Source of the DNA: a candidate division WOR-3 bacterium
GTDB taxonomy: Bacteria > Hydrothermota > UBA3073 > JACQXS01 > JAGMCI01
Length of the DNA stretch: 64,000 bases
Assembly: GCA_023129325.1 (NCBI GenBank)
Contig: JAGMCI010000021.1
Location: 3,712 to 67,711, forward strand
Direction of reading: 5' to 3'
Part shown: piece by piece, positions 22,990 through 25,380 of the stretch
Numbering within the stretch: position 1 is the stretch's first letter
Layout: each line of letters starts with the position of its first letter
Notes under the pieces: model-generated
Databases searched by the model: none
Seen by the model: only the letters and a program-made list of their open reading frames with translations
Told to the model about the DNA's origin: nothing
Translations under genes and position numbers: made by a program

Positions 22990-23961
22990 TTACCTATTAG
23001 TTAAATAGGTTTTAATTCCTTTTAATTTCCCCTGAATGCAAGCAAGGGTATTATCAAAAAGTGTTAGAGACGGGGATTGGAAAAGTAGGAGCAAACTTCT
23101 CAGGAATCCCAGATTATTGCGTTGACCAATAAAAAAAGTATAAAAAAGAAATATAAGCTTTCTTGGTAAAGAAAGGTATTTAAGTAGGAGATAAGTAGTA
23201 TTATGTGAGATTATAAAAAAATCTTGAGCAGTTAATTTCTCTTCTTCTTTAAAATGTTTGACTCTTATTTCTGGGTTATAAATAAGTTTGTATCCTTTGG
23301 CTTTTATCTTAAAACACATATCCTGTTCCCACCGGTAAAAGCCAAGCAAATTTTCATCAAATTCTTCTAAAAGTTCACGCCTGAAACTCATATTACAACC
23401 TTTTAAGAAATCCACTTCTTTAGATTTATCCAAAAGTTCATGATGATTTCCAATTATTCTGCCAAACCAGGTCAATTTTCCAACATTATATACGGGTCCC
23501 GCACATAATTTATGTGCGGGATTATACGCCCCTACCATTTTTGAATCAATAGGTGTATTAAACCTGTAAATTTCATCTCTCCCCCCCACTCCACCAATAA
23601 AGGACTTATCAGACACAGGCAATCCGCCTCTGGCGGATGTGCCACCAATGTAGGTTTTTATAATTTTTTCTAACCAGCAAGGTTCAGGAGCTGTATCTGG
23701 GTCAGTAAAGCAGATAAGAGAACCAGTGACAGATTTAAGGGCTTTGTTTAGTAAAGGGGTTAAATTATTTTTATCCTTAACTTCTATAATCTTAAGAAGA
23801 TAGTTTAGCTCTTTTGCACAACTTAAAATCGTGCCTACATTTAAGTCTTTATGAGAAAGGATAATTACTTCTTTTGGTAAAATAGTTTGAAAACTTAATG
23901 ATTGAAGACAGGCTTTTAACCTACCAGTTTTAAAAGCAGGTATTATAACAGAGGCTTGCAT
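22990..23961 (-). CDS. GT2-family glycosyltransferase carrying two palindrome inserts
   Basis: 323 aa. N-terminus SVIIPAFK...CLQSL and a DPD motif (FTDPDTAP). Inserts at 23498-23520 (NPAHKLCAGP) and 23613-23642 (TSARGGLPV). Confidence 0.7.
   Translation of the reverse strand: MQASVIIPAFKTGRLKACLQSLSFQTILPKEVIILSHKDLNVGTILSCAKELNYLLKIIEVKDKNNLTPLLNKALKSVTGSLICFTDPDTAPEPCWLEKIIKTYIGGTSARGGLPVSDKSFIGGVGGRDEIYRFNTPIDSKMVGAYNPAHKLCAGPVYNVGKLTWFGRIIGNHHELLDKSKEVDFLKGCNMSFRRELLEEFDENLLGFYRWEQDMCFKIKAKGYKLIYNPEIRVKHFKEEEKLTAQDFFIISHNTTYLLLKYLSLPRKLIFLFYTFFIGQRNNLGFLRSLLLLFQSPSLTLFDNTLACIQGKLKGIKTYLTNR
23498..23520. repeat. CCCGCACATAA-T-TTATGTGCGGG palindrome inside the GT2 gene
   Basis: 11-bp arms. 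Family members at 6721, 23987, 24858, 33349, 54760 and 57793. Confidence 0.85.
23613..23642. repeat. 30-nt element ACACAGGCAATCCGCCTCTGGCGGATGTGC inside the GT2 gene
   Basis: Identical 30-mer at 24201-24230 in a different gene. Contains TCCGCC-TCT-GGCGGA. Confidence 0.9.
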
Positions 23962-23986
23962 CTATTAAATTTTTACCACAAGGTCA

Positions 23987-24010
23987 TCCCGCACATAATT
24001 ATGTGCGGGA
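23987..24010. repeat. TCCCGCACATAATTATGTGCGGGA perfect palindrome (intergenic)
   Basis: 24-nt perfect palindrome between the two GT genes. Confidence 0.85.
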
Positions 24011-24066
24011 TTTTTTTCTTAGTGTCTTAGTGACTTCGTGGCTAATGTATTTAAAAGGTTATTTTT

Positions 24067-25380
24067 CTATTTATAAATCTCTAATAACTTTCGCACAGCT
24101 ATCTCTAATGATAATACTTCGTTGACTAACTGGCTACTATTCTTCTTAAGCCTTTTGTAGTTTTTAAGGAAATAAATTTCATTTTTATTATCTTCAGAAA
24201 ACACAGGCAATCCGCCTCTGGCGGATGTGCTACCAATTTCCAAAGGATTTACTACTATTCCAACATCATATTTTTCAATTAGAGGTGCAATCCCTTTAAG
24301 CCATAAGGTAACTATTATTGGTAATCCAGTTGCAAGATATTCACCGTCTTTAACAGAAATGCAATATGGGGTAGCAATTGCCATAGATTCAAGATGCAAC
24401 CCAGCATCTCCAAGTAAAAGAAGTTCTGGGACTTCATCTGGTTTAGGGGATAAAAGAATAAAATCCGAAGAATTAATATCAAGTTTTCTTGCTTCTTGAA
24501 GGATTTTAGGCAAGTTTTTCTTTGTTCCACATAGAATTACAAGCTTGGCATTTGGTTTCACTTTCTTGAAGTGAAGAAAATATTTTAAAGTAAGAGGAAG
24601 GTCTTTGGGAGTACCAAAAGCACCTGAATGGATAAGAACAAATTTATCTTGAATTCCATACTTTATTCGTAGCTCTTCGCGTTTCTCTCCATCCGGCTTA
24701 AATCTTTTTGGATTTACACAATTTGGAATTAAATTAACTTTTGAACATTTAAGCTTTGTAGCCACATATTCTTTAAATGGCTCTGAAGTTGTAATAACAT
24801 GGGAGGCGGATTTAATGAATCCCTGTTCCAAAAATTTCCATAACCTGTAGCTCCATGCCCCGCACATAAATTTATGTGCGGGGTCAGTAAATATCCCCGC
24901 TTCTATTCCCTTTTCAGGATATAAATCACGCATATCAAAGTTATAAGGTATACCAAGCCAACTTTTTAAAATGAAAGTAAGCCAGGTAGCCGGATAATTT
25001 CGTGAATGGATAAAGTCAATTTTATACCGAAATAAGAAATAAACTAATATGGGATAGGTAGTAATAGTATACAATACAAGCCACAGTATCCTGAGATAAA
25101 AGTCCTTATGTCTTATAGGAAACAGAATAGGTATAAAAAAACAGGAGATTTCGTTTTCATTAAGCCATTTTTTAATTCGCTTCCTGTTGATTCTATATTC
25201 CTTAAAACTTTTGACAGGTTCTCTCCGAGAAACCCAAAAAGCAAGAGGGATGAGTCCAAGGTATATGAATTTGTGACTGGTATGCTTATTAACCTCTATA
25301 ATAGGTTCCAGTAATTGGTATTCTATTATTGATGAATAAAAAGCACGTTCAATAGAGGTAAGAACCAGAATATTCATCAA
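24067..25380 (-). CDS. GT-B (GT1/GT4-like) glycosyltransferase carrying two palindrome inserts
   Basis: 437 aa. Membrane-associated N-terminus and a GT-B-like C-terminal half. Inserts at 24201-24230 (TSARGGLPV) and 24858-24883 (PAHKFMCGA). Confidence 0.6.
   Translation of the reverse strand: MMNILVLTSIERAFYSSIIEYQLLEPIIEVNKHTSHKFIYLGLIPLAFWVSRREPVKSFKEYRINRKRIKKWLNENEISCFFIPILFPIRHKDFYLRILWLVLYTITTYPILVYFLFRYKIDFIHSRNYPATWLTFILKSWLGIPYNFDMRDLYPEKGIEAGIFTDPAHKFMCGAWSYRLWKFLEQGFIKSASHVITTSEPFKEYVATKLKCSKVNLIPNCVNPKRFKPDGEKREELRIKYGIQDKFVLIHSGAFGTPKDLPLTLKYFLHFKKVKPNAKLVILCGTKKNLPKILQEARKLDINSSDFILLSPKPDEVPELLLLGDAGLHLESMAIATPYCISVKDGEYLATGLPIIVTLWLKGIAPLIEKYDVGIVVNPLEIGSTSARGGLPVFSEDNKNEIYFLKNYKRLKKNSSQLVNEVLSLEIAVRKLLEIYK
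24201..24230. repeat. 30-nt element ACACAGGCAATCCGCCTCTGGCGGATGTGC inside the GT-B gene
   Basis: Identical to 23613-23642, in the same orientation and reading frame (TSARGGLPV). Confidence 0.9.
24858..24883. repeat. CCCCGCACATAAATTTATGTGCGGGG perfect palindrome inside the GT-B gene
   Basis: 26-nt perfect palindrome, read as PAHKFMCGA. Confidence 0.85.

What the first reader, a model, noticed from the sequence alone, without database searches (positions are those of the whole stretch)
23613..24237. An identical 30-nt palindrome-containing segment shared by two different glycosyltransferase genes in the same frame
ACACAGGCAATCCGCCTCTGGCGGATGTGC occurs at 23613-23642 (GT2 gene) and at 24201-24230 (GT-B gene). 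Similarity extends about 7 nt further with one mismatch. In both genes it encodes TSARGGLPV. The surrounding proteins are unrelated folds, so this is not paralogy. Both genes also carry a CCCGCAC-type palindrome (23498 and 24858) encoding PAHK(L/F)(-/M)CGA. Possible explanations are recent insertion, gene conversion between neighbouring genes, or a preferred insertion frame.
Basis: seen in the sequence. Interest (0 to 1): 0.6.

Follow-up and report, generated by a model that had tools for sequence, protein, structure and literature searches.

The report
Twin hairpin repeat inside two glycosyltransferases
Two neighbouring sugar-transferase genes of an uncultured bacterium each carry, in frame, a nearly identical copy of a 36-42-base hairpin repeat; this is one more case of the known habit of small palindromic repeats of settling inside genes.

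Summary
The 30-mer occurs at 23613 and 24201 and nowhere else in the 2.0-Mb genome. Identity runs to 37 nt with one mismatch, and both copies read TSARGGLPV.

Orthologues at 46-64% identity, plus 28 database homologues of the GT2, lack the segment. It is therefore a 12-aa insertion in the GT2 and a 14-aa insertion in the GT-B, not shared ancestry. The inserted stretch is almost exactly the shared stretch.

The unit is a REP-like composite. Its outer part is a GT(A/G)G-tagged hairpin (GGTRGCACAGGC..GCCTGTG, about 10 copies). Nested in it is a hairpin of the TCCGCC-NNN-GGCGGA family (117 copies). The CCCGCAC palindromes belong to a further family of 70-90 copies. GT2 also carries a decayed GTAG-GCACGA REP whose transposase (RAYT) is in the genome.

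Both twin inserts fall in low-confidence loops of the AlphaFold models. Sharing a frame is unremarkable, because all six frames of the unit are open and the SAxGG frame is favoured genome-wide.

The near-identity and the 588-nt spacing argue for a recent, probably local, copy. The enzyme is unknown: no cognate RAYT was found. This is a new member of a known kind (intragenic REPs, Rickettsia RPEs) and is of moderate interest.

The parts
22990..23961 (-). GT2-family glycosyltransferase gene (323 aa, P0001), host of three in-frame repeat insertions
   Evidence: ORF. Pfam PF00535, E = 8.8e-10. Orthologues at 40-55% identity, 288-304 aa matched, are syntenic with the GT-B gene.
24067..25380 (-). 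GT4/GT1 (GT-B fold) glycosyltransferase gene (437 aa, P0002), host of two in-frame repeat insertions
   Evidence: ORF. Pfam PF13439, PF13579 and PF00534. Orthologues at 46-64% identity lie directly beside the GT2 orthologue.
23614..23649 (-). Twin copy A: 36-nt insertion ATTGGTGGCACATCCGCCAGAGGCGGATTGCCTGTG, giving IGGTSARGGLPV (residues 105-116). The tag is GTGG. The hairpin is GGCA(C)ATCCGCC-AGA-GGCGGAT-TGCC.
   Evidence: A 12-aa gap in all 7 orthologues and in 28 database homologues. Folds as ssDNA at -11.3 kcal/mol, z = -3.6. AlphaFold pLDDT is below 50 at residues 109-119.
24199..24240 (-). Twin copy B: 42-nt insertion GAA-ATTGGTAGCACATCCGCCAGAGGCGGATTGCCTGTG-TTT, giving EIGSTSARGGLPVF (residues 381-394). 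The tag is GTAG. The tract shared with copy A is 24201-24237.
   Evidence: A 14-aa gap in all 9 orthologues. Folds at -9.4 kcal/mol, z = -3.3. pLDDT is below 50 at residues 382-390.
23497..23538 (-). Second GT2 insertion, 42 nt: ATG-GTAG-GGGCGTATAAT-CCCGCACATAAATTATGTGCGGG-A, giving MVGAYNPAHKLCAG. It is one arm of the GTAGGGGCGTAT REP plus a CCCGCAC hairpin.
   Evidence: A 14-aa gap in all orthologues and homologues. The hairpin folds at -12.3 kcal/mol, z = -6.8. Family census. Low pLDDT at residues 142-174.
24858..24883 (-). CCCGCAC-family palindrome CCCCGCACATAAATTTATGTGCGGGG in GT-B (…DPAHKFMCGAW…), about 7 aa longer than the shortest orthologues
   Evidence: Folds at -13.6 kcal/mol, z = -6.6. 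In several orthologues the same loop carries other repeats, namely heptamer arrays.
23988..24009 (.). Intergenic CCCGCAC palindrome followed by a T-run on the + strand, in a 105-nt spacer between the two genes
   Evidence: Folds at -12.4 kcal/mol, z = -7.9. In one orthologous locus (G007) the match coordinates show the two genes abutting (6266-7129 and 7129-8439) with no spacer.
23816..23838 (-). Decayed GTAG-tagged REP GTAGGCACGATTTTAAGTTGTGC, in frame in GT2 (…NVGTILSCAK…), within a 7-aa insertion relative to six of the seven orthologues
   Evidence: It differs at two positions from the family form GTAGGCACGATTTTAAATCGTGC (dozens of copies). Copies of that family flank the RAYT gene at G000:C36:23050-23388. 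That protein matches NCBIfam NF047646, REP-associated tyrosine transposase, at 143.9 bits. The gap is in alignment A1.

Best explanation
The shared 30-mer is the core of one short REP-like palindromic element of 36-42 nt that has been inserted, in frame, into surface loops of both glycosyltransferase genes.

The element is a nested composite. Its outer part is a GT(A/G)G-tagged hairpin of the family GGTRGCACAGGC-loop-GCCTGTG. Into that hairpin a 15-nt hairpin of the abundant TCCGCC-NNN-GGCGGA family has been placed. The composite then propagated as a unit. The two copies differ by one base and lie 588 nt apart in the same orientation, so they are recent descendants of one copy. Most likely one gene's copy seeded the other locally.

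Shown here:
- Both sites are insertions.
- The inserted tract equals the shared tract.
- The unit belongs to dispersed hairpin families.
- There is no target-site duplication.
- The inserts sit in poorly ordered loops.

Inferred:
- The inserts are translated and tolerated.
- Movement is by a single-strand-DNA mechanism acting on hairpins, of the RAYT/Y1-transposase type or a template switch.
- The shared reading frame reflects survival of tolerable insertions, not a function of the peptide.
For: 1. Insertion status. There are 12-aa and 14-aa gaps exactly at the twin sites in 7 GT2 and 9 GT-B orthologues from syntenic loci, and in 28 further GT2 homologues.

2. The shared 37 nt coincides with the 36-nt and 42-nt insertions.

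3. Family membership. About 10 genomic copies of GGT[GA]GCACAGGC..GCCTGTG exist, for example C6:82147 GGTAGCACAGGCATCTTGCCTGTG. An in-frame inverted dimer sits in a 3267-aa ORF at C41:16806. There are 117 copies of TCCGCC-NNN-GGCGGA.

4. Nesting is general, and composites spread as units. Eight dispersed copies of CCCGCAC-ATAA-[TCCGCC hairpin]-AT-GTGCGGG exist, and other hairpins sit in CCCGCAC loops.

5. A distant genome of the same phylum (G037) has three related units ending GGCGGATTGCCTGT(G/C). An open frame through each reads GGLPV.

6. The genome runs REP/RAYT systems. It has five Y1-transposase genes, each flanked by its own hairpins, four of them with visible GTAG tags. Two were tested and match NCBIfam REP-associated tyrosine transposase. 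One such REP family sits in frame in GT2 itself.

7. Local copying occurs. Six of 48 TCCGCC elements have their best flank-match within 5 kb, against 0.38 expected; the maximum in 2000 shuffles was 5.

8. Loop location. pLDDT is below 50 at both inserts while the rest of each fold is confident.

9. Published precedent exists for intragenic and nested REPs (PMC3733652) and for in-frame repeats in general (PMC3184786).
Against: - No RAYT or other transposase is flanked by the CACAGGC or TCCGCC hairpins in this 89%-complete assembly.
- G006 holds 71 TCCGCC hairpins but has no Y1-transposase match.
- In the composite the outer stem is truncated. Compared with the base form, CACAGGCA is reduced to CACA (my reading). 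It may therefore be a poor transposase substrate.
- Only two copies exist, both at one locus. A non-transposase local process fits as well.
- The GT2 copy has GTGG, not GTAG.
- Translation of the inserts is not demonstrated.
Confidence: 0.75

Rival explanations
1. This is a local templated patch rather than transposition. During replication or repair, the nascent strand switched template to the hairpin-bearing segment of the neighbouring gene, less than 600 nt away and within one Okazaki-fragment span. It copied about 40 nt and returned at a microhomology. No transposase is involved.
For: - The only two copies in the genome are 588 nt apart in the same orientation.
- Both inserts are followed on the coding strand by TCTGA, directly in GT2 and after TTT in GT-B. 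That could be the return microhomology.
- No cognate transposase was found.
- The outer stem is truncated.
Against: - There is no microhomology at the other junction.
- The extra TTT is unexplained.
- Related units occur at unrelated sites in a distant genome.
- Other composites of these families are dispersed over many contigs, so these sequences can move over long distances.
- The TCTGA match was noticed after the fact. I estimate its chance probability at about 0.004-0.01, without correction for the many features inspected.
Confidence: 0.15
2. Two older, independent insertions of related family members have been kept or made identical by short-tract gene conversion between the adjacent genes.
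For: - The copies are close together and in direct orientation.
- 37 nt of identity is near the minimum length for RecA-type exchange (my own knowledge).
- The region is about 4-fold enriched in hairpin elements: 5-6 in 2.4 kb against about one per 1.85 kb genome-wide (my arithmetic).
Against: - It needs two separate hits of a rare composite, with no other copies in the genome, in adjacent genes.
- That is less parsimonious than one copying event.
- There is no homology outside the tract to support conversion.
Confidence: 0.07
3. The shared peptide I-G-(G/S)-T-S-A-R-G-G-L-P-V is a selected functional module, such as a binding or processing motif added to both enzymes.
For: - Both genes use the same frame.
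- An open frame through each of the three G037 units also reads GGLPV.
Against: - The peptide follows from the DNA palindrome.
- Other copies of the family are read in all three frames and also lie between genes.
- The inserts model as disordered loops.
- No homologue in a 5.8-billion-protein search carries it.
Confidence: 0.03

Closest known systems
Intragenic GTAG- and CGTC-tagged REPs (Di Nocera, De Gregorio & Rocco 2013, PMC3733652)
   Same: - A short (20-40 nt) GC-rich palindrome with a tetranucleotide tag at one end.
- Dispersed families, several per genome.
- Some copies inside ORFs, adding 10-30 residues, sometimes twice in one gene.
- REPs nested within other small palindromes.
- Some families have no dedicated transposase.
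   Different: - Here 60% of one family lies in long ORFs, instead of being mostly extragenic.
- The unit is a two-family composite with a truncated outer stem.
- One copy has GTGG instead of GTAG.
- The host is an uncultured AT-rich (36% GC) bacterium, probably of candidate division WOR-3.
Rickettsia palindromic elements, RPE (Ogata et al. 2000; reviewed in PMC3184786)
   Same: Palindromic repeats inserted in frame into unrelated protein-coding genes and tolerated as extra surface segments (loop location here).
   Different: RPEs are about 105-146 bp, against 36-42 nt here. There is no sequence relationship, and the lineage and lifestyle differ.
REP/REPIN-RAYT systems (REPtrons; E. coli TnpA_REP; Pseudomonas REPINs, Bertels & Rainey 2011, cited from my own knowledge)
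   Same: The genome encodes RAYTs, each flanked by its own GTAG-tagged REPs. One of those REP families is in frame in GT2. There is no target-site duplication.
   Different: The twin element and the TCCGCC hairpin flank none of the RAYT genes, here or in five relatives. The twin copies are singlets, not REPIN doublets.
GC clusters of yeast mitochondrial DNA (from my own knowledge)
   Same: Short GC-rich palindromes spreading in an AT-rich genome, some within coding sequence.
   Different: Organellar and eukaryotic, with different sequences. No comparison was run here.

Membership tests
REP (repetitive extragenic palindrome), GTAG-tagged class | Short (20-40 nt) imperfect palindrome able to form a stable stem-loop | tested here: met
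   The stem is 10-11 bp with one bulge. It folds at -11.3 and -9.4 kcal/mol, z = -3.6 and -3.3.
REP (repetitive extragenic palindrome), GTAG-tagged class | Conserved GTAG tetranucleotide at the 5' end of the hairpin | tested here: inconclusive
   The GT-B copy has GTAG and the GT2 copy has GTGG. In the base family GTGG outnumbers GTAG.
REP (repetitive extragenic palindrome), GTAG-tagged class | Many dispersed copies in the genome | tested here: met
   The outer family has about 10 copies and the nested hairpin 117. The exact composite has only 2.
REP (repetitive extragenic palindrome), GTAG-tagged class | A cognate RAYT gene flanked by the same REP | tested here: not met
   None of the five Y1-transposase genes is flanked by CACAGGC or TCCGCC hairpins. 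A related hairpin, CACAAGCAAGATGCTTGTG, lies beside a Y1 domain in relative G003. G000 has no close orthologue of that domain; the best match is 34% identity. The assembly is 89% complete.
REP (repetitive extragenic palindrome), GTAG-tagged class | Predominantly extragenic location | tested here: not met
   70 of 117 TCCGCC hairpins and 32 of 72 CCGCAC hairpins lie in stop-free frames of at least 150 aa. The random background is 85%.
Rickettsia palindromic elements (RPE) | In-frame insertion into otherwise conserved protein-coding genes | tested here: met
   Gaps of 12 and 14 aa against all orthologues, with the frames intact.
Rickettsia palindromic elements (RPE) | Element length of about 100-150 bp and membership of RPE-1 to RPE-10 sequence families | tested here: not met
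   The element is 36-42 nt. The RPE size comes from PMC3184786. No sequence comparison was run.
MITE | Terminal inverted repeats flanked by a target-site duplication | tested here: not met
   No direct repeat lies at the junctions of either twin copy. The ATTGGTGG found 15 nt downstream in GT2 is not a duplication made on insertion. TTGGTGG is the element's own conserved end, and the length accounting does not fit a duplication.

The most novel reading that the evidence does not exclude
The 15-nt TCCGCC-NNN-GGCGGA hairpin may be an autonomous-looking, transposase-less mobile module.

What was observed:
- It has a polarity tag, AA on one side only. The left A and the right T exclude each other in 88 of 117 copies.
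- It settles in the loops or arms of other hairpins.
- It is patchily abundant in distant lineages of one phylum, including a genome with no Y1 transposase.
- It is read through in frame at high density.

On this reading, the twin in the two glycosyltransferases is a fresh product of a hairpin-guided copy mechanism that has not been described. That mechanism could be local template switching or an unknown enzyme, rather than RAYT action.
Probability: 0.2. Interest if true: 0.6.

Novelty: new member of a known kind. Interest (0 to 1): 0.35.

Why it matters
This case shows, with clean empty-site controls, that very short hairpin repeats can be written into working enzymes without breaking the frame. 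It also shows that they can nest in each other and then spread as composites, sometimes to the gene next door.

Three practical points follow:
- Identical short peptides in unrelated proteins of such genomes should not be read as shared domains or motifs.
- Gene-length and alignment anomalies in uncultured AT-rich bacteria often have this cause.
- The locus offers a defined pair, one base apart, for testing how REP-like elements are copied.

Tried and rejected
- **Target-site duplication.** ATTGGTGG at the 5' end of the GT2 insert recurs 15 nt downstream in the native IGG codons. I rejected it as a duplication made on insertion. TTGGTGG is the conserved end of the element family. A duplication would also require a 17-aa insertion, whereas all orthologues show 12 aa.
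- **Closer relatives for dating.** The best GT2 homologue in the 5.8-billion-protein set is about 50% identical. The only other contig with the exact protein is the same sequence. The genome-contig scan gave two order-level MAGs already in hand.
- **Other copies of the composite.** There are none in metagenome contigs. There are none in 40 relatives except the related units of G037.
- **A transposase for the TCCGCC hairpin.** No RAYT in G000 or in five hairpin-rich relatives is flanked by it.
- **Known RNA family.** Rfam found nothing relevant in 22500-25800.
- **Extended complementary flanks as a general rule.** For TCCGCC copies the extensions are not more frequent than with shuffled partners. 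A few CCCGCAC copies have 7-11 extra paired bases.
- **Earlier notes by sequence.** Nothing was found.
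Full report
**1.

The 30-mer sits at 23613-23642 and 24201-24230, and none of 100 shuffles gave a match. The window is G000:C14:3712-67711 of a 2,018,063-base, 57-contig, 36% GC assembly. In that whole assembly these are the only two copies, even with six mismatches allowed.

A local alignment extends identity to 37 nt with one mismatch. On the coding strand the tract is ATTGGT[G/A]GCACATCCGCCAGAGGCGGATTGCCTGTGT. It is the strongest direct repeat in the surrounding 18 kb.

Both copies are on the coding (minus) strand and in the same frame:
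- In the 323-aa GT2 (22990-23961) the tract reads IGGTSARGGLPV.
- In the 437-aa GT-B (24067-25380) it reads IGSTSARGGLPV.

Pfam assigns the two proteins to different families. BLASTP finds only two notable local matches between them, both at inserted segments. The twin insert is significant (E = 4e-4); the match at the CCCGCAC palindromes is weak (E = 0.39).

An independent Logan assembly reproduces 5.5 kb of the locus exactly.

GT2 reads PAHKLCAG and GT-B reads PAHKFMCGA. A one-base difference in loop length shifts the frame of the second arm.

**2. Both sites are insertions**

Order-level relatives carry the same gene pair side by side. Seven GT2 orthologues (40-55% identity) have a 12-residue gap at the twin site. 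Nine GT-B orthologues (46-64% identity) have a 14-residue gap. Codon-level views place the inserts as follows:
- GT2: TAC|ATTGGTGGC...CCTGTG|TCTGAT
- GT-B: TTGGAA|ATTGGTAGC...CCTGTGTTT|TCTGAA, where the leading GAA is counted with the 42-nt, 14-aa insertion

A further 28 homologues from a 5.8-billion-protein search all lack the segment.

The inserted stretches (36 and 42 nt) therefore coincide with the shared stretch (37 nt). What is shared is exactly what was added, which excludes a common ancestral domain. There is no target-site duplication at either junction.

**3. What the unit is**

The genome is full of GC-rich hairpin families. A census of perfect stems of at least 6 bp gives about 1,090 hairpins. 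The main families are:

| Family | Copies |
|---|---|
| TCCGCC-NNN-GGCGGA | 117 |
| CCCGCAC..GTGCGGG | 70-90 |
| CCTGCC | 65 |
| TCCCGA | 52 |
| GTAG-GGGCGTAT | 23 |
| GTAG-GCACGA | dozens |

The flanks of the twin identify a further family, GGT[GA]GCACAGGC-loop-GCCTGTG, with about 10 copies. An example is GGTAGCACAGGCATCTTGCCTGTG at C6:82147. An inverted dimer of this family is read in frame as GGTGFQPVKAHSQDGCAT inside a 3267-aa ORF.

By my reading of those sequences, the twin is this hairpin with a TCCGCC-AGA-GGCGGA hairpin placed inside it. Part of one outer arm has been lost. The tag is GTAG in GT-B and GTGG in GT2.

Nesting is common in this genome, and composites spread as units:
- Eight dispersed copies of CCCGCAC-ATAA-[TCCGCC hairpin]-AT-GTGCGGG exist.
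- CCCGCAC loops also host TCCGTC, GTAGGGGC and CCTGCC hairpins.

**4. The wider family**

The TCCGCC hairpin is patchy among relatives:

| Genome | Relationship | Copies |
|---|---|---|
| G000 | this genome | 117 |
| G003, G006, G008 | one genus of the same order | 84, 71, 116 |
| G004, G005 | same order | 18, 20 |
| G037 | same phylum only | 87 |
| All others, including G001 (same family as G000) | same family to same phylum | 0-4 |

G037 also holds three units that end GGCGGATTGCCTGT(G/C), like the twin. An open frame through each reads GGLPV, for example NPGAPSASGGLPVSLF. I did not test whether those stretches are coding. The exact composite occurs in no other relative and not in the metagenome collection. 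The twin is therefore a member of a real, mobile family of sequences, not a local accident.

**5. The same two genes hold more elements**

- GT2 has a 42-nt insert, ATG-GTAG-GGGCGTATAAT-CCCGCAC hairpin-A, encoding MVGAYNPAHKLCAG (23497-23538).
- GT2 has a decayed GTAG-GCACGA REP in a 7-aa insertion (23816-23838).
- GT-B has a 26-nt CCCGCAC palindrome (24858-24883).
- A fourth palindrome lies in a 105-nt spacer between the genes. In one orthologous locus (G007) the match coordinates abut, with no spacer.

In several relatives, the loop of GT-B that carries the CCCGCAC palindrome carries heptamer arrays or other extra residues instead. That position evidently tolerates additions.

AlphaFold models built on the orthologue alignments are confident overall (pTM 0.79 and 0.84). 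They fall below pLDDT 50 at the twin inserts: residues 109-119 in GT2 and 382-390 in GT-B. The second GT2 insert falls within the low-confidence stretch 142-174.

**6. Frame**

All six frames of the 36-nt unit are open (my reading of the sequence). Same strand and same frame would therefore occur about one time in six by chance.

Genome-wide, 70 of 117 TCCGCC hairpins lie in stop-free frames of at least 150 aa, against 85% for random positions. They are depleted in coding sequence but still frequent there. Of those 70:
- 38 use the frame TCC GCC NNN GGC GGA (S-A-x-G-G).
- 13 use the R-L-R-R frame.
- 19 use the P-P-x-A frame.

By my arithmetic this gives chi-square of about 14.6 on 2 degrees of freedom, with paralogous copies not removed. 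A bias toward small, flexible residues is what a tolerance filter would give. These counts use a stop-to-stop criterion, not gene calls.

**7. Mechanism**

The genome encodes five Y1-transposase genes. Each is flanked by its own hairpins, and GTAG tags are visible on four of the five. The two that were tested match NCBIfam's REP-associated tyrosine transposase above its cut-off.

The GTAG-GCACGA family that flanks one of these genes has a copy in frame in GT2. REPs of an active-looking system therefore do enter genes here.

No RAYT is flanked by CACAGGC or TCCGCC hairpins, in this genome or in five hairpin-rich relatives. G006 has 71 TCCGCC hairpins and no Y1 match. A hairpin one compensated base pair away from the CACAGGC stem lies next to a Y1 domain in G003. 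G000 has no close orthologue of that domain.

The evidence for a single-strand hairpin mechanism is the tag, the hairpin, the absence of a duplication and the nesting in hairpin loops. The enzyme that acted on the twin is not identified.

The two copies are the only ones in the genome and lie 588 nt apart. Across the TCCGCC family, nearest sequence relatives are also genomic neighbours more often than expected: 6 of 48 against 0.38 expected. The other two local pairs are intergenic. Both twin inserts are followed by TCTGA, which could mark a microhomology. A local copy is thus the best reading, by transposase or by template switch, and I cannot separate those two routes.

**8. Comparison with what is known**

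Di Nocera et al. (PMC3733652) describe the following:
- GTAG- and CGTC-tagged REPs inside genes, sometimes twice in one ORF.
- REPs nested in other palindromes.
- Families without a dedicated transposase.

Delihas (PMC3184786) reviews in-frame repeats, including the 105-146-bp Rickettsia RPEs.

The present case works like these. It fails two REP criteria as tested: no cognate RAYT, and it is not mainly extragenic. It also fails the RPE size criterion.

Earlier notes of this scan on the same genome and others report the same general phenomenon. I treat those notes as leads. The points I used were re-derived here.

**9. Verdict**

The twin is a recent pair of copies of a nested REP-like element written in frame into two unrelated enzymes. 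It is a new member of a known kind, of moderate interest. The open question is how transposase-less hairpins such as TCCGCC are copied.

Noticed in passing
L040:550-3027 (G003:C4, about 141-143 kb): An 825-aa open frame with a C-terminal amylo-alpha-1,6-glucosidase domain (GDE_C, residues 471-812). In the same frame it carries a Y1-transposase (RAYT-like) domain at residues 323-408, bracketed by translated hairpins (CTCAAGCTTCTAGCTTGAG and CACAAGCAAGATGCTTGTG). A whole REP-RAYT unit appears to sit in frame inside an enzyme gene.
   Followed up: partly
G000:C14 about 71-75 kb (just beyond the window's end): A 1265-aa ORF that I read as RNA polymerase beta subunit (no family scan was run). It carries in-frame (GEVGS)n arrays and a TCCGCC hairpin read as NPPLAE, so even a core essential gene is decorated.
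   Followed up: no
L014, L015, L016 (GT-B orthologues), at the position matching window 24858-24883: Where this genome has the CCCGCAC palindrome, three relatives have in-frame 7-nt tandem arrays (ACTCGCA/ACTCACA type, read as ITRNSQLITHK). L020 has two other inserts, including one read as NPAGAGF. This indicates recurrent, independent additions to the same loop.
   Followed up: partly
G000:C13:38700-39490: An 800-nt intergenic stretch made almost wholly of repeats. It holds several hairpin families, half-site arrays of TCCGCCTAAGG, and TTGCTAA/TTGTTAA heptamer arrays with GGGCGGGCAGGG units.
   Followed up: no
G000:C31:12940 and C41:32606: Two large secreted-type proteins end in a similar C-terminal segment (…IYFIRLCAKGTSASGGDTKNY…KKLILLK). 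That segment contains a tandem pair of hairpins, TGTGCC-AAA-GGCACA followed by TCCGCC-TCT-GGCGGA. 90 nt are shared at 89% identity.
   Followed up: no
genome-wide, TCCGCC family: The hairpin has a polarity. An A (usually AA) precedes it, or a T (usually TT) follows it, but rarely both: 50 copies have A only, 38 T only, 22 both, 7 neither. The orientation of the 3-nt loop is independent of this.
   Followed up: partly
window 23988-24016: The intergenic CCCGCAC palindrome is followed by TTTTTTT on the + strand. It therefore resembles an intrinsic terminator facing against the two genes, which are on the minus strand.
   Followed up: no
G037 (L047, L049, L051): A genome related only at phylum level holds 87 TCCGCC hairpins and three units with the twin's right end, GGCGGATTGCCTGTG. 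One of them has a further insertion nested in the TCCGCC loop.
   Followed up: partly
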